Virus record (IMG/VR): IMGVR_UViG_2563366915_000004
From: a virus
Lineage: Duplodnaviria > Heunggongvirae > Uroviricota > Caudoviricetes
Direction: 5' to 3' (one strand)
Length of the DNA: 36,067 nt
In this document: piece after piece, positions 1,764 to 30,113 of the stretch
How positions within the stretch are numbered: the stretch's first letter is position 1
Layout: every line of letters starts with the position of its first letter
Program-made: the position numbers and the translations under genes
The notes under the pieces: generated by a model
The model's input: the letters and a program-made list of their open reading frames with translations, nothing else
The model's database searches: none
Told to the model about the DNA's origin: nothing

Positions 1764-4700
1764 TACCGATATGCTCCACTTAACCGACCACCATCACGGG
1801 CCTGCTGTTGCATAAAGTCCGCTGCCGCTTTTTTCCCGAGGTCATAAACCGCCTTCAGGGCAGCCGGACCTATCTGCCCGTTCGTGCCATCGTTATTGAT
1901 CTCGATGTTGTACTGCGGGGAAAACATCGCCATACCTGAACCCCCAATATCCGCCACAACCCCCAGCTTACCGTCAGCACCACGACGCAATGGCAGAATG
2001 GCTTCAGGTCCCGCTTCCCCCATCACACCCGCGCCTTTTGCAAAAGCAAAAAACGTCGGACGGTTAACCACCGTGCCACTGTAACGACTCAAATCAGCAG
2101 ACTGATAAATCCCCCCATTGGCATTCAGGGAAAGGCTGCTGAGATCAAATCCCAGCACACTGCCAATCCCTTTTATCGATTTCATCATGGTTGCCTGCGC
2201 CAGGATTTTCGCCATATCTGACAGCACAGAAGAGGTGAAGGATTTGAAATTGAGTTTGCCGGTAGTGACAAAAGTTGCCAGGCCATTTCCCATGTTGCTG
2301 AAGGCTGACGAGAACACCTGTTCTGCTGTTCCTGCCGTATTATCTGCATCCACGGTAAAATCCTGAAATGCACGCAGGACTCCGTTTTTCCAGTTACCCT
2401 GCACAACTTCAAGCTGTTGCCAGTAACGGCGATTCTCATTCAGTTGTCGGTTCAGGCTCTCCGTCAGCGCCTGCTCGGCCTTTCTGTAGTCATCCGTGTT
2501 ATATGTTCCTTTCTGCTCACTATCCCGCCTCAACTGCTCCAGCTGTTGCTGGTATTTCTGGCGAAGACTCAGTTGTACCTGATATCGCTGCCGCTGCTGA
2601 TCACCCATACCCACCGTGGCGATATCCAGGTCATGTTGCTGACGCTGAGCGCGCTCTTCTTCAGCCAGTTGACTGGTCAGCTGAATTGTTTTTTTCTTCA
2701 GCTCGTTGAGTGCCGTCTGTTTCTGAAGCTCCTGCTGTTTTACATCCAGCAGCGTCAGTGCCTGAATCAGTTCATCTTTACGGGCCAGCACACTCTTTTC
2801 ATCTGCCGTCAGTTTTTTCCCGTCCAGGTCGCTGATGCGCTGCTGCAGAGCCAGAAGCTGTTTATGCGCTTCTGTCATCCTTTCCGTGGCAATGCCTGCT
2901 GACTGTCTGGCAGCAGCAATCTGTCCTTCCACCTGTGCCTGTTGCTGACTGTACTGCAGCAATAACCGGGTGGCCTCATCATTACGGGGTTCGCGTGTTT
3001 TTTTCTTACCGGATGCCAGGGCTTTCTCGTAACGTTCATTTTCACGTTGTATCGCTGCATCCCTGACAGCCTGATCGGCGTACTGCATGGAATTAATACG
3101 CGCAATTTCACGCTGATGTCGTGCTGCTTCCGTTTCATTCATCCGGTTCAGTGCAGCATTTTCAGCATTACGTCGTTTCTGTTGCTCCTGATAATTCCGC
3201 TCTGCCTGCTCTTTTGCATCCTGCAAATCCTTCTGGCGTTTTTTCTCCTGAAGATCGTTAAGACGCTGCTGATCGTATTCAACCTGAGAAGATGATGCCG
3301 TCCAGGGGAGTCTTTTCGCCCGCGACACTTTCTCCTGTAAAGCGGCAATCTGTTCATCCAGCGAGTCTTCACGACCAATATTCATGGCCGCATCCCAGAA
3401 ACGACTCCACAAATCAGACAGATACTTCAGCGTACTGCCAAGCGCATTGAGGTTATTATCAATATCCGCAGTACGCCGACCGGTTTCCTCTGCCAGTGCA
3501 GACATGGCTATCCGTGCAGCATCACTGGACCGTCCCTGATCCCCAAGGACACGTATCTGCTCAAGCTGAGTGGCAGTAAGAAAATGCAGCTCATTGTCCA
3601 GAGCCTTCGCGGCATTTACAGGATCATCCTTCAGCCGCTTAAACTGATTTATGGTATCGCTGACCGACTGGCCAACCGATCGCTCCATCTGTGCGGCAGC
3701 TCTCGCCACCATACCGATATCGTTTCCACGAAATGCACCACTCCCCACCACCTGAGCCAGCGCACCGGCTGCAGCATGTTGCGTGATACCATTCCCGGAA
3801 ATAGCACGACTGAGCGTCCACAGCTGCCCGGCAGTGACTCCGGCATAATGCCCCGTCAGCGACAACTGGCGGTTAAATTCTTCCCCCTCCTTCTGACCGT
3901 CATACCAGGCTTTACCCAGACCATAGACGGACGCGGCAATACCGCCAATAACCCCGCCAAGCATCATGCCTTTCGGTGACATCAGAGTGTCTATCCATCC
4001 GGCACGGTTAGCCAGCGTTATCCCGGATCCCCTCAGCGCCCCTAAATTGCCGCGGGCCAGTTCACCTATCAGAACGCCAATCTCCTGGCGGGCCGCTGCA
4101 CTTTTCAGACCCAGCGAATGCGTGGCTTTTCCTGCCTGCTCCATTTTGCGGATATACACTTCTGCAGCACTGCTTACCCCCAGCTGGGCAGCCTTAGCAC
4201 GAAGCAACTCAGAAGAAGAAAGATTCTGGCGGGTTGCCTGCTCTTTAAGCTGACGGATAAACGCCACTTTCTGTCGGGTAGCCTCTTCCTCAGCCTGCGT
4301 AAGAACACGGGTTTTCGCCGTAACCTCAGAAATCAGCGCCAGATAATCCTGCTGACCAATCCCGCCACTGTTTCTGGCCTGTCGGATCTGCTGCTGAATA
4401 CGCTGTAATTCCTGCAGCCCCGCACTGGCCTGTTTCACACTGTCAATCTGACGATAAAACGCGGCAGCCGCTTTATCCTGAGCCTCCGCCAGAGCCATGG
4501 CCTGCGCCTGTTCCTCGCGCATTTTCTGGCTCAGTGCCTCCATACGCTGGCGGGTTTGCTCCACCTCGCGGGCCATGCGTTCATGAGCCTGTGCGCTCTT
4601 CTCCACCGTCTGCGCATGGACGGATGCGGCTGTTGCAGCCGAAGAAGCCGCCTGCATTGTCTGCCGGGCGGCCTGAGTCTGACGCTCCATAAAACGCTGC

Positions 4701-16563: not shown

Positions 16564-16769
16564 TTCATTTTCACTTTTTTAAATCCAACGACAGACGGCT
16601 GGCATTTAAGTATTGTGAAATATTATCAAATGTAATCATCATTGATTTACAAAAGATACATTTTGCCCCGAAAGGATTCATGTCAGAAACATCAAAAGAT
16701 GATGTTCTATACTGGGAACCATGACAACACGGGCATCTAAAGTGAATATGGTTTGTAATATTGTCTACC

Positions 16770-16982
16770 TCAAAGCGCCACTACATGAACAGCGGCAGGA
16801 CCTTTAGGTCCGTTCTCAATACCAAATTCAACTTCCTGATTCTCAGTTAATGTTTTGAAATCGTTGCTCTGAATTGCTGAGAAATGGACAAACACATCTT
16901 TGCTGCCATCTTTCGGCGTGATGAAACCAAAACCTTTTTCAGGGTTAAACCATTTCACTAAACCAGTCATTTTGTTAGACAT
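16770..16982 (-). CDS. cspI: cold shock protein (CspI-like)
   Basis: 70-aa [73 protein letters not shown] with RNP1/RNP2 CSD motifs (KGFGFI, VFVHF). Confidence 0.9.
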
Positions 16983-17345
16983 AATTATTACCTTTTGAAG
17001 AAATTAGCCCTTGGGCAGAATGGTCCGAAAAAAAATATCAGAGAGAAAAACCAACAAGGAAATCTCAAGAGGTACAAATAATAAAATTATAACAATGACT
17101 GCTTCAGATAAATTTGTAACAAACCAGAACACCATTAACGCATGATTAACCACCCATAGCAAGGATTACTTTTGTAAAGAAAAACACAGCAATGAAAGAA
17201 TAGCTTTATTTATTAATAATAACGTGTCATTCTGATTAAGACCTTTTATCTTACCCTTAAGATTTCAGGAATTTTGGCTCATGGAAGAGTCCTTTTTATT
17301 TAAATTTTACATTCCGCGATGTAAATGTTCCGATTTAATATTACC

Positions 17346-19376: not shown

Positions 19377-19654
19377 ATTGTGGTGCTTTTTGTGGGAGTC
19401 ATCCACTTACGCACTTTGTTTTGCCATGCCAGCAGTTAGCTTCTGCTGTAAAACTATTCATGCAGCAAACCTGCACTTCACCACAATGGTTAGCATACTT
19501 TTCCTGATTAAGATTTTGCCAAATATGCTAGCCATTGTTTCATGTATTGGACCTCCTTACTTTTTATTAAAGAGATCCAATATTCACTACTCTGTCCGTA
19601 TCTCTACTCAGGCATCAGCCTTCTTCGTTATCGTATACAGACGAGCGATGAATT

Positions 19655-19870
19655 TTAATCAGTAATGATGACATTTGCTGCTGCAGGACCTTTAGCACCA
19701 CTCTCTATAGAGAAGGTAACCTTTTGACCTTCAAATAAGGTTCGATAATTATCATTCTGAATCGCAGAAAAATGCACAAACACATCTTTACTACCATCAA
19801 CAGGAGAAATAAAGCCGAAACCTTTATCAGCGTTAAACCATTTTACTAAACCAGTCATTTTATTTGACAT
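19655..19870 (-). CDS. cspB: cold shock protein (CspB-like)
   Basis: 71-aa [70 protein letters not shown]..., with CSD RNP motifs. Confidence 0.9.
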
Positions 19871-20170
19871 TCTACATTCCTTAACTTGAGCCTTTCGGCA
19901 TAAATGGTTTGCATAACAGAAACGACTTCGTACTTAATTGGAGAGACTCAAAGAAGGAATAAGTGAATAACACCTGAAATGAGAACTGCTTTAGTAAACT
20001 ACTTCGTATATCGTCTGTTCTTCAAACCGACGCAATCATTAACGCATAGTTGAACATATGAAGCAATGTTTATTTTAGACATCCAGCCATCTTCAACCCC
20101 ATCAAAAAACTATAGCTTTCTTCAGGAACGTGTGTATAGTGCGCCAAGTTATCAGTATTAAGGAATTTTT

Positions 20171-22966: not shown

Positions 22967-23218
22967 TTATTCTTCTGCAAAAGCAGAAAAGCCAGCTTTT
23001 ATTCCGATCTCTTTCAATGCCTGTAATGAAGTGACAAACTCACCTTCGCGCAAGATAAATCCGTCCGTGACCCGAGCATCCACAAAATTAATTAACGCAG
23101 CCCCATTCTTTCGCAAACACATAATGCGGTAATGACTAACAAGATTTCCATTTTCAACGCACACAGCATAGAGGCCATCTTCACAAAAAATTTTACGCAG
23201 TTCTTCGATGTTCATCAT
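22967..23218 (-). CDS. rem: Rem-like small protein
   Basis: 83-aa ORF MMNIEELRKIFCEDGLYAVCVENGNLVSHYRIMCLRKNGAALINFVDARVTDGFILREGEFVTSLQALKEIGIKAGFSAFAEE; position next to hok as in Qin. Confidence 0.7.
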   Translation of the reverse strand: MMNIEELRKIFCEDGLYAVCVENGNLVSHYRIMCLRKNGAALINFVDARVTDGFILREGEFVTSLQALKEIGIKAGFSAFAEE

Positions 23219-23334
23219 CAGAATCCTTCCGGATAATTAGCTCTCCCCTTTAAGGGACCATCCCTCTTATCCCTGCGCGCTACTTAAGTATTTTTGATTC
23301 TATTCCGGCACCGTCCAGATCTTCAAACGCGTTG

Positions 23335-23368
23335 AAAATAAAAACAAAAACCCGCCGAAGCGGGTTAA
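23335..23368 (-). terminator. intrinsic terminator ending the hok transcript
   Basis: Minus strand AACCCGC-ttcg-GCGGGTT followed by TTTTGTTTTTATTTTC. Confidence 0.55.
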
Positions 23369-23434
23369 GTGCGGGTGCGTTGAGGATGCCTGCCACATCA
23401 GAGGTGGCGAGGGATTTCTCCCTCGCCGGGTCTC

Positions 23435-23590
23435 TTACTCCTCAGGTTCGTAAGCTGTGAAGACAGCGACCTCCGTCTGGCCGGTTCGGATTCGTACCTC
23501 GCAGAGGTCTTTCCTCGTTACCAGTGCCGTCACTATGACGGTTAAACAGATGACGATCAGGGCGATTAACATCGCCTTTTGCTGCTTCAT
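23435..23590 (-). CDS. hokD: Hok/Gef-family type I toxin
   Basis: 51-aa ORF MKQQKAMLIALIVICLTVIVTALVTRKDLCEVRIRTGQTEVAVFTAYEPEE: single transmembrane helix plus conserved Cys and periplasmic tail; AAGGAG RBS inside the overlapping mok frame. Confidence 0.9.
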   Translation of the reverse strand: MKQQKAMLIALIVICLTVIVTALVTRKDLCEVRIRTGQTEVAVFTAYEPEE

Positions 23591-23647
23591 AGCCTGCTTC
23601 TCCTTGCCTTTCGGCTCGTAAGAGGCTAACCTACATGTGTCTAGCAT
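23435..23647 (-). CDS. mok (modulation of killing) reading frame overlapping hok
   Basis: ORF MLDTCRLASYEPKGKEKQA... begins upstream and runs in the hok frame region, as in hok/sok loci where mok translation is needed for hok translation. Confidence 0.5.
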   Translation of the reverse strand: MLDTCRLASYEPKGKEKQAMKQQKAMLIALIVICLTVIVTALVTRKDLCEVRIRTGQTEVAVFTAYEPEE

Positions 23648-23720
23648 GAAATTGGCCTCAGATTAATGTTAAGCGTCTTGCAGGACGCGTAATGTTAACT
23701 GGGGCTTTTCTCTATCTGCC
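23640..23720 (+). ncRNA. candidate Sok-type antisense RNA region (boundaries not determined)
   Basis: Inferred from hok/mok architecture: an antisense RNA complementary to the mok translation initiation region is expected here; possible -35/-10 TTGCCT-17-TAACCT near 23603-23631 on plus. No direct evidence of the transcript. Confidence 0.3.
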
Positions 23721-24264
23721 TTTGGTGTTCATGCCCGAGGCAGATAGCCTCAAGCACCCGCAGCCATTCTACTTAACTACCGTTACCTCGCCAATATGAA
23801 ATCAGTCAGAAAGGCGATCCATAAGAACAATAGCAAGACAATAAATCGCCATTACAGCCGTAATAGCCAGCGCACATTTGAGAACCAGCACCACAACCTC
23901 CTGTATTGGACGTAGACCAGTCCTGATGAATATGAGGCTGTCTCGTCAGTGATTCAATACAACTATTGGGTATAGTTTCTCTGATTTTTTCTGTGGAAAT
24001 GGGGCACAACCACTAGTCACCACCAGCACTTCTTTTAATACGCAAAGTCCGACACAAGCTAACCTTCTAGTCCGCTTTGAGCGAAAAACAGCCATAATTT
24101 AGTGCCACGTATATAATGATAGAGCTATTCAAGCTAGCAATTCACATGTAAAAATTCAGAGGGTAGAAGCACATAGTTATAAATGTTGGCTCCATCGACA
24201 AATTGCGGTCTCAAGTACATTTATTAATGTTGCCCCCGCATTAACAAATCATCAAGGTGACGAC

Positions 24265-26052
24265 ATGGACGATATTAATATCAGCCTCGACGAACTTAAC
24301 ACTATTGATTTATCCCCCTTAATCCAGAGTAAGCTGCCAGTTACCTGCTTTGATATCACAAAGTATCTTTCTAGCCTAGGTGATGGAAGAGCGGAGATAA
24401 GACTGCTAACCCATATTTGCGGTTTTCACTTTCGTCCCGAAAATCCACAGGTACCATTTGGTCCGTGCTTTCAAAGCAGCCAAGGTAGATCTGCAATTCC
24501 GGATGACATTAACGGGTTGTCGCTGGAGGTACTTTCTCAATTTTGCCCGACGATAGAGCTACCCGAACTTCAAGCTCGTATTGCTGATACACTTTGGGTT
24601 CGTAAAATTGGTGGAATCCGTTTTCCTTTGCTGGCAGTCCGTGCTTATTATGCGTCCAGTATAGCTATTATGACATCGCAAGGGACGTGGGTTAGTGCTT
24701 TAGAACGCCTAGAGCGTGCGCTTAGGCTGTGTTGTTTTTTTCGAAAGAATACTGATTTCAGGGATGAATTTGATCAGCTTTCGGCACATCTACTAGCAGA
24801 GTATGAACGTACCAGAGAACAAGGCGATTCACCTTATCCGCTGCGACTCCTGCAACTCGATATCGACTGTAAAGTGAGTGAGCCATCTTTTATTGCCCAG
24901 GAACTCCTGTTTCTGACAAAAAACTATCTGGCTCAAAAATTATTTTCATTTGCCGTCGATGCCTGTAAAACCGCAATCACGATTGCGAATAGGTGCTGTG
25001 ACAGAGATACACAGTTTGAATTCTGGCGGCTTCTTGCCGATACACATCTGGAAGAGTCAAAATTCCAAGATGGCGGTATGATTTCGGCAGCCTGCATGCA
25101 GAATGCTATTGAAGCACTGGCTAATATTCCAGGAACCCGAATAGAACGTCTTGCGCTGTATGAAGAAATGCGTGATTACCAAATCGAATCCCGTCACCAG
25201 ATGTCTATCCTTCAGTCTCCCCCTCAAGATATTAGTGAGATTGTCCATCAAGCCAAGAGTCGGGTAGTCGGAAGAGATATGTTTGATATGGTTTTCAGAC
25301 TTGCGATGCTGGTCTGTCGGCCAACCAGCATTGAGAGACTTAAGGCTCAAGCAATAGAACAAAAGGCCAACAGCATAGCTTGGATGTTTGGATCAACACA
25401 TATTGATCATGAGGGAATGACACTTGCTCGCATACCCGCAGGATTGGGGATTGATGATGCAAATGGGGCAGTTATTTGGCCCATAATGATGACGAGAATG
25501 CGTATCGACCATGAGTTGGCAGTAGCTGGGCAAATTATTCCTGCTACAGATGAGATCACAATGAAATATCCAATCTCGGAGGCGTTTTTTCGCGATATGT
25601 TCATCAATCATCCCTTCATCCCGTTTGGGCATGAAGAGTTTTTCATCAAGGGTATGGTTTGCGGTTTCAATGGAGATTTTATGACGGCATGCCACGTGTT
25701 GATTCCCCAGATCGAAAATAGTCTGAGATATGTGGCTAAAATTAAAGGTGAGGAACCATCGCAGCTTCACGGGGACGGTTCGCAAGAGCGAAATGGACTC
25801 AAGGGATTACTAGATAATCCACTGATTATTGAAGCTTTCGGCGTAGACATAATTGGCAATCTTCAGGCCTTACTGGTAGATAAAATCTATGGTGATTTAC
25901 GAAATCAACTAGCTCACGGATATGTGCCTGCCGGTTACTACAATCAACCTCCCTGCATTTTTGCATGGTGGCTTGTATTGCACATTCTAATGAACCCTAC
26001 GGCGAGATACTGGCAAGCCACTTATGGCCAAGAGAGTGAGGCTCAGACTTAA
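24265..26052 (+). CDS. 595-aa protein with C-terminal HEPN-type Rx4HxY motif (candidate RNase-type defence/abortive-infection effector); N-terminal roughly 500 aa of unknown family
   Basis: Long ORF with AAGGTGA RBS 5 nt upstream of the ATG; opposite orientation to all flanking prophage genes; motif GDLRNQLAHGY (R546-x4-H551-x-Y553, nt about 25891-25923) about 45 aa from the C-terminus. Confidence 0.75.
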   Translation: MDDINISLDELNTIDLSPLIQSKLPVTCFDITKYLSSLGDGRAEIRLLTHICGFHFRPENPQVPFGPCFQSSQGRSAIPDDINGLSLEVLSQFCPTIELPELQARIADTLWVRKIGGIRFPLLAVRAYYASSIAIMTSQGTWVSALERLERALRLCCFFRKNTDFRDEFDQLSAHLLAEYERTREQGDSPYPLRLLQLDIDCKVSEPSFIAQELLFLTKNYLAQKLFSFAVDACKTAITIANRCCDRDTQFEFWRLLADTHLEESKFQDGGMISAACMQNAIEALANIPGTRIERLALYEEMRDYQIESRHQMSILQSPPQDISEIVHQAKSRVVGRDMFDMVFRLAMLVCRPTSIERLKAQAIEQKANSIAWMFGSTHIDHEGMTLARIPAGLGIDDANGAVIWPIMMTRMRIDHELAVAGQIIPATDEITMKYPISEAFFRDMFINHPFIPFGHEEFFIKGMVCGFNGDFMTACHVLIPQIENSLRYVAKIKGEEPSQLHGDGSQERNGLKGLLDNPLIIEAFGVDIIGNLQALLVDKIYGDLRNQLAHGYVPAGYYNQPPCIFAWWLVLHILMNPTARYWQATYGQESEAQT

Positions 26053-30060: not shown

Positions 30061-30113
30061 TTTCTGGTGACGTTTGGCGGTATCAGTTTTACTCCGTGAC
30101 TGCTCTGCCGCCG
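30061..30113 (+). ncRNA. dicF: DicF small RNA (Hfq-dependent sRNA from the dicB operon)
   Basis: Sequence TTTCTGGTGACGTTTGGCGGTATCAGTTTTACTCCGTGACTGCTCTGCCGCC followed by GTTTTT matches the 53-nt DicF sequence as remembered; lies between the ydfB/C region and dicB. Confidence 0.75.

What the first reader, a model, noticed from the sequence alone, without database searches (positions are those of the whole stretch)
23335..23765. Intact hok/mok/sok-type type I toxin-antitoxin locus with fold-back (fbi) complementarity between mRNA ends
A 51-aa Hok toxin ORF is overlapped by a mok frame starting about 57 nt upstream. The predicted mRNA 5' region (minus strand, about 23755-23762, GCGGGTGC) is complementary to a 3'-UTR element (about 23372-23379, GCACCCGC) just before a strong terminator, the arrangement that keeps full-length hok mRNA inactive in plasmid hok/sok systems. 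A stable 9-bp 3' hairpin (GGCGAGGGA-tttc-TCCCTCGCC, about 23405-23426) is also present. The locus directly abuts the candidate defence gene, forming a small toxin/defence island.
Basis: partly seen in the sequence, partly recalled or inferred. Interest (0 to 1): 0.5.

Follow-up and report, generated by a model that had tools for sequence, protein, structure and literature searches.

The report
Intact prophage hokD/sok toxin-antitoxin locus
This is an ordinary, already annotated hok/sok-type RNA-controlled toxin gene cassette (hokD) carried by a Qin-like lambdoid prophage of E. coli, with every regulatory element of the textbook system in place; it is correct as described but not new.

Summary
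Window 23340-23794 (minus strand) is a complete hok/mok/sok type I toxin-antitoxin cassette. It contains a promoter, a ~415-nt hok mRNA, a 51-aa Hok ORF and an upstream mok start. It also contains an antisense Sok gene, a 5'/3' tac-fbi pairing, a 3' stem-loop and a terminator.

The 531-nt locus is 100% identical to DNA annotated "hokD" in many RefSeq E. coli genomes. It is about 94% identical to hokW-sokW of phage Sp5, which has been characterised experimentally. E. coli K-12 hokD (relF) is the truncated derivative: identical from the hok Shine-Dalgarno onward, with relBE replacing the leader.

Folding reproduces the published R1 switch. In the full-length RNA, tac pairs with fbi and the mok SD is sequestered. 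After the 3' end is trimmed, tac pairs with ucb and the mok SD pairs with dcb. Across 40 loci from six or more genera the tac-fbi pairing is kept, with compensatory changes at four positions.

Corrections:
- Coordinates are off by one.
- mok is in frame with hok, giving a 70-aa extended Hok, as in mokC and mokW.
- The linkage to the neighbouring DUF4209/PDC-S39 gene is not conserved (1 of 80 related loci).

Verdict: already known, low interest.

The parts
23766..23794 (-). hok promoter: -35 TTGGCG (23794-23789), 17-nt spacer, -10 TAGAAT (23771-23766)
   Evidence: Promoter scan, 9/12 match. The -10 is TAGAAT in most of the 66 unique HokD-type variants and the -35 is TTGGCG or TTTGCG.
23345..23759 (-). 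Full-length hok (mok-hok) mRNA, about 415 nt. The 5' end is inferred from -10 spacing and Rfam model position 1; the 3' end is inferred from the terminator.
   Evidence: Rfam RF01794 covers 23759-23585, 116 bits. MFE is -174.1 kcal/mol, z=-8.65. Ends were not mapped experimentally.
23748..23759 (-). tac (translational activator) element, GGGUGCUUGAGG, mRNA nt 1-12
   Evidence: Pairs with fbi in the full-length fold (P=0.995). Pairs with ucb in the nascent and 3'-trimmed RNA. Invariant in 66 variants.
23701..23759 (-). 5' hairpin (nt 1-59): a tac/ucb stem enclosing hairpin 13-48. It forms in the nascent transcript (metastable structure) and again after 3' processing.
   Evidence: Folds of nt 1-60, 1-75, 1-110 and 1-140. 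Same pairs as the Rfam consensus structure.
23701..23705 (-). ucb / anti-SD, GCCCC (nt 55-59)
   Evidence: Pairs with the mok SD in the full-length RNA (P=0.99). Pairs with tac after 3' trimming (P=0.66-0.97). Invariant.
23656..23659 (-). mok Shine-Dalgarno GAGG (nt 101-104), 8 nt upstream of the mok ATG
   Evidence: Sequence. Sequestered by ucb in the full-length fold and paired with dcb in the trimmed fold.
23435..23647 (-). mok reading frame, ATG 23647. It is in frame with hok and gives a 70-aa product, MLDTCRLASYEPKGKEKQA+Hok.
   Evidence: ORF list. Same in-frame layout is annotated for K-12 mokC and VT2-Sakai mokW. Of 66 variants, 58 keep it and 8 have a 19-aa Mok ending in an ATGA overlap.
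23622..23626 (-). dcb, GCCUC (nt 134-138). It pairs with the mok SD in the processed RNA to form the Sok-target hairpin (nt 101-138).
   Evidence: Folds of 3'-trimmed RNAs. Invariant.
23604..23632 (+). Sok promoter: -35 TTGCCT (23604-23609), 17-nt spacer, -10 TAACCT (23627-23632)
   Evidence: Read from the sequence. Hexamers are identical to those upstream of the annotated sokW and conserved in 53/66 variants; the others have TTGACC/TAATCT. It is too weak for the consensus scan (7/12) and was not found.
23639..23709 (+). Sok antisense RNA, about 71 nt: a 9-nt single-stranded 5' tail, a long hairpin and a U-rich 3' end. It is complementary to the mok SD/start region.
   Evidence: Ends transferred from the sokW misc_RNA of AP000422 through a pairwise alignment. 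Fold is -30.3 kcal/mol. K-12 sokC starts at the equivalent position.
23435..23590 (-). hok toxin ORF, 51 aa (MKQQKAMLIALIVICLTVIVTALVTRKDLCEVRIRTGQTEVAVFTAYEPEE), with SD AGGAG at 23604-23600
   Evidence: Pfam PF01848, 81.6 bits. The DNA is identical to K-12 hokD/relF. RefSeq annotates it as 'type I toxin-antitoxin system toxin HokD', WP_000813254.1.
23450..23452 (-). Tyr47 codon UAC in a UACG context. This is the position where hokD mRNA is reported to be A-to-I edited (Tyr to Cys) at low level in K-12.
   Evidence: Sequence is identical to K-12 hokD here. Editing of hokC/hokD/hokE is reported in PMC12214031. Editing was not tested here.
23406..23427 (-). 3' stem-loop GGCGAGGGA-GAAA-UCCCUCGCC (nt 333-354). 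It is the counterpart of the R1 stem-loop that protects the processed mRNA from 3' exonucleases.
   Evidence: Present in all folds. Maintained through wobble and compensatory changes in variants and in hokW. The role is taken from PMC9841398.
23373..23385 (-). fbi (fold-back inhibitory) element, CCUCAA-c-GCACCC (nt 375-387)
   Evidence: It lies 49 nt after the stop codon, the family-typical position. Covariation with tac is seen at positions 4, 7, 11 and 12 across the family.
23340..23366 (-). Intrinsic terminator AACCCGC-UUCG-GCGGGUU followed by a U run
   Evidence: Terminator scan: 7 pairs, 5 of them G-C. Homology among related loci ends just after it.

Best explanation
The region is the intact form of the hokD locus: a hok/mok/sok-family type I toxin-antitoxin cassette in the region between the replication genes and the Q antiterminator of a Qin-like lambdoid prophage of E. 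coli.

Proposed mechanism, by homology with plasmid R1 hok/sok and phage Sp5 hokW-sokW:
1. A sigma-70 promoter makes a stable ~415-nt mRNA.
2. While the RNA is nascent, its 5' end (tac) is locked in a local hairpin with the anti-SD box (ucb).
3. In the finished RNA, tac pairs instead with fbi near the 3' end, and ucb sequesters the mok Shine-Dalgarno. The RNA can then be neither translated nor bound by Sok.
4. Slow 3' exonucleolytic trimming removes the terminator and fbi and stops at the GGCGAGGGA stem-loop.
5. tac then re-pairs with ucb. The mok SD moves into a weaker hairpin with dcb that presents the mok start region.
6. An unstable ~71-nt antisense Sok RNA is made constitutively from the opposite strand. 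It binds this region, blocks mok translation and so blocks hok translation, and the duplex is cleaved by RNase III.
7. When Sok disappears (loss of the element, transcription shut-off, or prophage induction), ribosomes starting at mok read into hok. In this variant mok and hok are in frame. The membrane toxin is made and the cell is killed or permeabilised.

The likely benefit to the prophage is maintenance and/or faster lysis and release on induction.

Shown here: all sequence elements, their conservation, and the thermodynamic switch. Inferred: transcript ends, processing, Sok expression, toxicity and biological role.
For: Identity:
- The 531 nt are 100% identical to loci annotated hokD in at least 25 listed RefSeq genomes. 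3807 of 5426 complete E. coli genomes hold a place covering at least 80% of the query.
- The context is rem-ydfU-ydfT(Q)-cspF-cspB on one side and replication/dicA-type genes on the other.
- A 99.3% identical copy lies in the same position in the isolated phage HannyBb.

Family membership:
- Pfam HOK_GEF, 81.6 bits.
- Rfam RF01794, 116 bits over the full model.

Relation to K-12:
- K-12 hokD is identical from AGGAGAAGCAGGCTATG through the terminator. Upstream of that point relBE replaces the leader.
- 78 of 80 viral contigs with an identical Hok carry the full leader; 2 carry the relE junction.

RNA switch:
- Full-length RNA: P(tac:fbi)=0.995 and P(ucb:SDmok)=0.99.
- 3' end trimmed to nt 366-374: P(tac:ucb)=0.66-0.97 and the SDmok/dcb hairpin forms.
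- The nascent RNA forms the tac/ucb hairpin.
- An R1-type mRNA behaves the same way under the same procedure.

tac/fbi covariation across Escherichia, Kluyvera, Photorhabdus, Pantoea, Erwinia and Citrobacter:
- Position 4: U-A to C-G, with U-G intermediates.
- Position 7: U-A to C-G.
- Positions 11 and 12: G-C to A-U.

Sok:
- Promoter hexamers, start and end match the annotated sokW.
- The fold is tail plus hairpin plus U tract.

Experimental data on the closest relative:
- hokW-sokW is 93.8% identical in nucleotides, and HokW matches at 46 of 51 residues.
- HokW is toxic, and sokW counteracts it with partial dependence on RNase III and Hfq.
- sokW disappears on mitomycin C induction, and deleting the locus halves phage release (PMC8621323).
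- The element definitions come from PMC9841398.
Against: - Nothing here was tested experimentally for this allele. The transcript ends, the 3' processing site and Sok expression are all inferred.
- The Sok promoter is weak by consensus (7/12) and was missed by the scan.
- The duplex energy of the 5' end with the 3' UTR is not by itself exceptional: 39/2000 dinucleotide shuffles match it, and 480/7600 across the family.
- The predicted switch depends on where trimming stops. With 3' ends at nt 354-358 or nt 380 the closed form is again favoured.
- Within the HokD clade, tac, ucb, dcb and fbi are invariant, so they give no covariation evidence there.
- Chromosomal hokA, hokB and hokC loci were reported not to mediate post-segregational killing and not to be activated by rifampicin (as summarised in preprint 10.1101/2025.08.07.668861). 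Sequence integrity therefore does not guarantee activity.
Confidence: 0.9

Rival explanations
1. The locus is intact in sequence but physiologically silent. On this view it is a hitch-hiking remnant that prophage recombination keeps copying. Its toxin is never released at a meaningful level, so it has no maintenance, lysis or defence role.
For: - Chromosomal hokA, hokB and hokC loci were reported unable to mediate post-segregational killing or to be activated by rifampicin (cited in preprint 10.1101/2025.08.07.668861).
- K-12 tolerates a decapitated hokD.
- One related contig (L081) has a ~1.1-kb insertion between leader and ORF.
- HokD needs low-level A-to-I editing to gain the conserved Cys (PMC12214031).
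Against: - Every regulatory element is invariant across 66 variants, while flanking DNA and the Sok-recognition stretch vary freely. That pattern indicates purifying selection on the RNA switch.
- 78/80 loci keep the full leader.
- The ~94% identical hokW-sokW has measurable phenotypes (PMC8621323).
Confidence: 0.15
2. The cassette works together with the adjacent DUF7380/DUF4209 (HEPN-type, PADLOC PDC-S39) gene as a two-part anti-phage island. Hok would act as an abortive-infection effector when an infecting phage shuts off host transcription and Sok decays.
For: - The neighbour at 24265-26052(+) matches PDC-S39 at 343 bits.
- It carries DUF4209, which has been classed as a HEPN RNase domain (PMC3710099).
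- Prophage accessory slots often hold defence genes.
- To my knowledge (not checked here), R1 hok/sok has been reported to exclude T4.
Against: - Only 1 of 80 viral contigs with an identical Hok has the DUF4209 gene. K-12 has relBE at that place, and HannyBb has a methyltransferase and hypothetical genes.
- Homology among related loci starts at the hok -35 and ends after the terminator, so the cassette moves on its own.
- Hok gives no PADLOC hit.
- No enrichment of hok near defence systems was found (preprint).
- The two genes are divergent and 470 bp apart.
Confidence: 0.05
3. The functional toxin of this variant is the 70-aa in-frame Mok-Hok fusion made from the mok start, rather than the 51-aa Hok made by coupled re-initiation. 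The 19-residue extension would modulate membrane insertion or toxicity.
For: - mok and hok share a frame with no intervening stop.
- 58/66 variants keep this layout.
- mokC and mokW are annotated the same way.
Against: - 8/66 variants with an identical Hok have mok shifted by one base. Their 19-aa Mok stops in an ATGA overlap with the hok start, so the fusion is dispensable.
- Residues 2-5 of the extension are hypervariable because they overlap the Sok-recognition stretch.
- hok keeps its own strong SD, AGGAG, 9 nt upstream.
- In R1, translation of mok matters rather than its product (PMC9841398).
- The 51-aa HokW expressed alone is toxic (PMC8621323).
Confidence: 0.1

Closest known systems
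hokW-mokW-sokW of Sakai prophage 5 / phage VT2-Sakai (AP000422; Takada et al. 2021, PMC8621323)
   Same: - 93.8% nucleotide identity over 90% of the locus.
- Identical tac, ucb, SDmok, dcb, Sok promoter hexamers, SDhok and fbi.
- 70-aa in-frame mok and 51-aa hok.
- 71-nt Sok at the equivalent position.
- Carried by a lambdoid prophage.
   Different: - Five C-terminal residues of Hok differ: VFTAYEPEE here, VFVDYESEK in HokW.
- About 6 substitutions lie in the Sok 5'-tail/mok-start stretch.
- Sequence diverges after fbi, where hokW has a different 3' end/terminator.
- The position in the phage genome and the neighbouring genes differ.
E. coli K-12 hokD (relF), third gene of the relBEF operon in cryptic prophage Qin
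   Same: - DNA is identical apart from two substitutions, from the hok SD through ORF, 3' stem-loop, fbi and terminator and on into rem.
- Same prophage backbone: rem, ydfU, ydfT, cspF/cspB, dicF.
   Different: - K-12 lacks the promoter, tac, ucb, mok and sok. relBE is joined about 16 nt upstream of the hok ATG, leaving an orphan fbi.
- The window has the complete cassette. It is the common form: 78/80 viral contigs.
hok/mok/sok (parB) of plasmid R1, the paradigm
   Same: - Same set and order of elements.
- Same predicted switch from tac:fbi plus ucb:SDmok to tac:ucb.
- Same Rfam family: an R1-type locus scores 87 bits.
- Homologous Sok promoter position.
   Different: - By the hokW paper's figures, Hok of the hokW type shares about 44% identity with R1 Hok.
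- In R1, tac/fbi is 7 bp (GGCGCUU/AAGCGCC); here it is 12 bp with a bulge.
- In R1, mok is out of frame with hok; here it is in frame.
- The Sok hairpin here carries an extra ~17-nt insertion relative to the Rfam consensus.
- R1 is a plasmid, with post-segregational killing shown; this locus is in a prophage.
E. coli chromosomal hokC/mokC/sokC (gef)
   Same: - In-frame mok: mokC and hokC share a stop codon and differ by 57 nt.
- About 75% nucleotide identity over the whole locus.
- Same tac. The fbi is CUUCAACGCACCC in strains without IS186.
   Different: - Core-chromosome location next to dnaJ rather than in a prophage.
- Interrupted downstream by IS186 in K-12.
- Shorter Sok hairpin.

Membership tests
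hok/sok (Hok/Gef) type I toxin-antitoxin family | Small (~50 aa) hydrophobic Hok/Gef-family toxin ORF | tested here: met
   Pfam PF01848 at 81.6 bits against a cut-off of 22. The protein is identical to RefSeq HokD WP_000813254.1. NCBIfam Hok-family hits fall below their strict cut-offs.
hok/sok (Hok/Gef) type I toxin-antitoxin family | hok mRNA leader with the family's conserved sequence and structure | tested here: met
   Rfam RF01794 at 116 bits against a gathering score of 59, full model 1-157, on the hok sense strand. The same model hits 38 of the 40 other family loci scanned.
hok/sok (Hok/Gef) type I toxin-antitoxin family | Upstream mok reading frame with its own SD that runs into hok (translational coupling) | tested here: met
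   GAGG, 8 nt, then ATG at 23647, with the ORF reading through the hok start. It is conserved as either an in-frame 70-aa form or a 19-aa form with an ATGA overlap. Coupling itself is not testable with these tools.
hok/sok (Hok/Gef) type I toxin-antitoxin family | cis-encoded antisense Sok RNA complementary to the mok translation-initiation region | tested here: inconclusive
   The promoter-like hexamers, start and end coincide with the annotated sokW and sokC. The RNA folds as tail plus hairpin plus U tract. The promoter is weak by consensus, and expression cannot be tested here.
hok/sok (Hok/Gef) type I toxin-antitoxin family | Long-range tac/fbi pairing of the mRNA 5' end with the 3' UTR | tested here: met
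   12 bp with one bulge, P=0.995. Same position and compensatory changes across the family.
hok/sok (Hok/Gef) type I toxin-antitoxin family | mok SD sequestered by ucb in full-length RNA; refolding to tac/ucb and SDmok/dcb after 3' processing; metastable 5' hairpin in nascent RNA | tested here: met
   Tested in silico only. The positive control with an R1-type mRNA behaves alike. The result depends on the assumed processing site.
hok/sok (Hok/Gef) type I toxin-antitoxin family | Toxicity of Hok, neutralisation by Sok, RNase III cleavage, differential RNA stability | not testable with these tools
   These are shown for the ~94% identical hokW-sokW (PMC8621323). They were not tested for this allele.
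K-12-type truncated hokD (relBEF operon) | hok joined directly downstream of relE, without its own promoter, mok or sok | tested here: not met
   The window carries the complete leader. The alignment with K-12 breaks about 16 nt upstream of the hok ATG. No RelB/RelE is encoded nearby.
Toxin/defence island with PDC-S39 (DUF7380/DUF4209) | Conserved genetic linkage of the two components | tested here: not met
   The DUF4209 gene is present next to hokD in 1 of 80 viral contigs. Other genes occupy that slot in K-12 and in phage HannyBb.

The most novel reading that the evidence does not exclude
The 16-nt stretch that forms the Sok 5' tail and its target around the mok start (window 23654-23639) is under diversifying selection. 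This would keep the up to 12 co-resident hok/sok copies in one E. coli genome mutually orthogonal. Each prophage's Sok would then protect only against its own Hok, and loss or induction of one prophage would be sensed individually. The window's allele would be one 'specificity type' in such a system.
Probability: 0.3. Interest if true: 0.4.

Novelty: already known. Interest (0 to 1): 0.1.

Why it matters
It matters little as a discovery. The locus is annotated in RefSeq, belongs to the best-studied type I toxin-antitoxin family, and has an experimentally characterised near-identical relative (hokW-sokW).

Its practical value is for annotation. It shows that the K-12 reference 'hokD/relF' is a decapitated copy and that the complete mok/sok-bearing form is the norm in E. 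coli prophages. It also provides coordinates for the unannotated Sok RNA, mok frame and RNA-switch elements in this window.

The check also shows that adjacency to a candidate defence gene is not evidence of a functional island.

Tried and rejected
1. The consensus promoter scan found the hok promoter but not the Sok promoter. Sok was located instead by homology to annotated sokW and sokC.
2. Covariation within the HokD clade (66 unique variants) was uninformative because tac, ucb, dcb and fbi never vary. I therefore fetched more distant loci from genome contigs and used Rfam hits to define their 5' ends.
3. RNA duplexfold on hokC initially picked a non-homologous partner. With the 13-nt 5' segment it found the homologous fbi.
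4. A shuffle test of the 5'/3' duplex alone gave only p of about 0.02. It cannot carry the argument on its own.
5. The choice of trimming point matters. Cuts at nt 380 or at nt 354-358 keep the closed form. I do not claim a processing site.
6. PADLOC gave no hit for Hok/Mok, and NCBIfam Hok models stayed below their cut-offs.
7. The defence-island idea was tested by tblastn of the neighbours against 80 related loci and rejected.
8. A literature search for 'sokD' returned nothing relevant. I found no open-access paper that names the intact locus hokD/sokD. I know Pedersen & Gerdes 1999 only from memory and through citations.
9. The large protein-database searches and structure prediction were not used, because nothing in the question depended on them.
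Full report
**What is in the sequence**

Reading the minus strand of 23200-23950 gives these features, in order:
- A sigma-70-type promoter, TTGGCG-17-TAGAAT, at 23794-23766.
- A G-rich start, GGGUGCUUGAGG, at 23759.
- A leader of about 170 nt.
- An ATG at 23647, preceded by GAGG.
- A second ATG at 23590, preceded by AGGAG.
- A 51-codon ORF ending at 23435.
- A 9-bp stem-loop at 23427-23406.
- The sequence CCUCAACGCACCC at 23385-23373.
- An intrinsic terminator at 23366-23349 with a T run.

Its 'mok frame' is the 70-aa ORF 23647-23435, which is in the same frame as hok.

**Identification**

- Rfam's RF01794 matches 23759-23585 at 116 bits (E=6e-26) over the whole model. The hit is on the hok sense strand and ends in the hok AUG. 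The model called 'sok' is therefore really the hok leader, which contains the Sok-complementary segment. The same orientation held for the family loci that matched in the later scans.
- The ORF matches Pfam HOK_GEF at 81.6 bits.
- A megablast of 531 nt against 5426 complete E. coli genomes found 100% identical copies annotated 'hokD: type I toxin-antitoxin system toxin HokD'. It also found places covering at least 80% of the query in 3807 genomes.
- In strain 118UI the neighbours are rem, ydfU, ydfT (Q-like antiterminator), cspF and cspB downstream. Upstream lie a DUF4209 protein, then DUF977, YdaT, Cro/CI-type and ydfA genes.
- Together with the cspA-type and DicF Rfam hits elsewhere in the window, this places the locus in a Qin-like lambdoid prophage, between the replication genes and Q.
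- A 99.3% identical copy lies in the same slot of the isolated phage HannyBb.

**Relation to the K-12 reference**

- K-12 hokD (relF) aligns without gaps and with only two substitutions from AGGAGAAGCAGGCTATG through the ORF, stem-loop, fbi and terminator and on into rem.
- Upstream of that point the similarity stops, and relE/relB take the place of the leader.
- K-12 therefore holds a decapitated copy with an orphan fbi.
- Among 80 IMG/VR contigs encoding an identical Hok, 78 have the complete leader and 2 have the relE junction.
- The window thus carries the usual, complete form.
- The literature describes K-12 hokD as inactivated by rearrangement (PMC12214031).

**The antisense gene**

- On the plus strand, TTGCCT (23604-23609), 17 nt and TAACCT (23627-23632) precede a start near 23639.
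- This promoter scores only 7/12 against consensus, and the scan did not report it.
- The hexamers are nevertheless identical to those of phage VT2-Sakai, whose record annotates sokW (71 nt), mokW (70 aa, in frame) and hokW (51 aa).
- Transferring the sokW ends through the pairwise alignment gives Sok = 23639-23709.
- K-12 sokC starts at the equivalent position, 9 nt inside mokC.
- The predicted Sok folds into a 9-nt free tail, a long hairpin and a U-rich end (-30.3 kcal/mol).

**The RNA switch**

The definitions of tac, fbi, ucb, dcb, the metastable hairpin and the protective 3' stem-loop were taken from PMC9841398.

- Full-length 415-nt RNA: MFE -174.1 kcal/mol, z=-8.65.
  - nt 1-12 pair with nt 375-387, mean pair probability 0.995.
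  - GCCCC (nt 55-59, ucb) pairs with the mok SD, P=0.99.
- Nascent RNAs of 60-140 nt put tac into a hairpin with ucb. These are the same pairs as in the Rfam consensus structure.
- With the 3' end moved to nt 366-374, removing fbi and the terminator:
  - tac:ucb rises to 0.66-0.97 and ucb:SDmok falls to 0.02-0.34.
  - The mok SD pairs with GCCUC (nt 134-138, dcb) in a hairpin that presents the mok start.
- An R1-type hok mRNA treated the same way makes the same change of partners.
- The outcome depends on the assumed trimming point. Ends at nt 380 or at nt 354-358 favour the closed form. I do not claim a processing site.

**Is the 5'/3' pairing more than chance?**

- Taken alone, the duplex energy is matched by 39 of 2000 dinucleotide shuffles of the 3' UTR.
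- Within the HokD clade, tac and fbi are almost invariant, which says nothing either way.
- I therefore fetched 53 loci from one-genome-per-species assemblies and took the Rfam model start as the 5' end.
- In 38 of 40 loci the first 12 nt can pair with an element 45-56 nt after the stop codon. The loci come from Escherichia, Kluyvera, Photorhabdus, Pantoea, Erwinia, Citrobacter and others.
- Across 16 distinct tac/fbi combinations:
  - Position 4 is U-A, C-G or U-G.
  - Position 7 is U-A or C-G.
  - Position 11 is G-C, A-U or G-U.
  - Position 12 is G-C, A-U or G-U.
- To my knowledge this repeats the published covariation analysis of the family (Gultyaev, Franch & Gerdes 1997, recalled from memory). 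It places the window's fbi at the canonical site.

**The mok frame**

- mok is in frame with hok here, in K-12 mokC and in mokW.
- Among 66 unique HokD-type variants, 58 keep the 57-nt in-frame arrangement.
- The other 8 have the mok ATG 56 nt upstream, giving a 19-aa peptide whose stop overlaps the hok start (ATGA).
- Both layouts drive ribosomes across the hok initiation region. This fits the R1 finding that mok translation, not the Mok product, matters (PMC9841398).

**Function**

- The closest characterised relative is hokW-sokW: 93.8% nucleotide identity, and Hok identical at 46 of 51 residues.
- HokW is toxic.
- sokW neutralises it, with partial dependence on RNase III and Hfq.
- sokW disappears on mitomycin C induction while hokW mRNA persists.
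- HokW appears about an hour before the endolysin.
- Deletion delays growth arrest and halves phage release (PMC8621323).
- I take this as the most likely role for the locus in the window, together with prophage maintenance.
- Against this, chromosomal hokA/B/C loci were reported inactive in post-segregational killing assays (preprint 10.1101/2025.08.07.668861).

**The 'defence island' remark**

- The gene at 24265-26052(+) has DUF7380 and DUF4209 domains.
- It matches PADLOC candidate PDC-S39 at 343 bits.
- DUF4209 has been classed as a HEPN domain (PMC3710099).
- The gene is divergent from hok and 470 bp away.
- It accompanies hokD in only 1 of 80 related contigs.
- Homology between related loci begins at the hok -35 and ends just after the terminator, so the ~450-bp cassette is an independent module.
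- The survey preprint found hok enriched in prophages but not near defence systems.

**Verdict**

The finding is correct and well described, but it concerns a known, annotated member of a textbook family. Novelty: already known. Interest: low.

Noticed in passing
window 23802-23894 (-), likely start GTG 23891: An unannotated 29-30-aa ORF (VLVLKCALAITAVMAIYCLAIVLMDRLSD) follows an AGGAGG and has one predicted membrane helix. It ends 7 nt before the hok -35. It is present upstream of hokD in 19 of 80 related viral contigs. These include a 47%-identical 34-aa orthologue with AAGGAGG plus ATG (MSDDISLAMEGALAVIAVVGVYCLVVFLMDRLGN), which suggests a real small membrane protein. No Pfam, NCBIfam or PADLOC hit.
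   Followed up: partly
window 24265-26052 (+): A 595-aa protein with DUF7380 and DUF4209 (HEPN-type) domains matches PADLOC phage-defence candidate PDC-S39 at 343 bits. It occupies the slot that holds relBE-ydfV-flxA in K-12 Qin.
   Followed up: partly
window 23639-23654 (mRNA nt 106-121; Sok 5' tail and mok start): This stretch is the variation hot-spot of the cassette: 0.85 bits per column, against 0-0.3 bits in the other elements, across 66 variants. Co-resident copies in one genome (E. coli ECMA0423, S. flexneri SFBU1023) carry different versions. This could reflect selection against cross-talk between Sok RNAs.
   Followed up: partly
L006, L016, L025, L028, L042, L057, L061, L082 (leader upstream of hok): Eight HokD-type variants have mok shifted by one base. 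The result is a 19-aa Mok (MRHIEISLLRTERSRRSRL) whose stop codon overlaps the hok start as ATGA. In the other 58 variants mok is in frame with hok.
   Followed up: yes
window 23585-23759 and loci L085-L141: Rfam family RF01794 is named 'sok antitoxin', but it matches the hok sense strand in every case and ends at the hok AUG. A hit to it is evidence for the hok leader, not directly for the antisense RNA.
   Followed up: yes
L002 2404-2775 (E. coli K-12 hokD): K-12 hokD keeps the 3' stem-loop, fbi and terminator although its tac partner is gone. It is an orphan fold-back element downstream of relBE.
   Followed up: yes
L081 about 1891-3000: In one viral contig the hok leader (1712-1891) is separated from the hok ORF (3001) by about 1.1 kb. 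This is probably an insertion that inactivates the locus.
   Followed up: no
L137 250-397 and L139 362-389: In Erwinia sp. CGal63 and Kalamiella sp., CRISPR-DR4 repeats lie about 100 nt upstream of a hok leader.
   Followed up: no
L123 556-703 and 1185-1333: Photorhabdus temperata has two hok leaders in tandem about 630 nt apart. Several Photorhabdus genomes hold many hok copies.
   Followed up: no
window 16743-17128 (-), 19639-20031 (-), 30062-30113 (+): There are two cspA-type thermoregulator leaders (cspB/cspF-like genes) and a DicF sRNA. These mark the window as a Qin-like prophage that, unlike K-12 Qin, appears to retain large structural-gene ORFs.
   Followed up: no
window 23450-23452 (-): Hok Tyr47 is encoded by UAC in a UACG context. 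K-12 hokD is identical in DNA here and is reported to be A-to-I edited at about 6%, recoding Tyr to the Cys conserved in other Hok proteins (PMC12214031).
   Followed up: no
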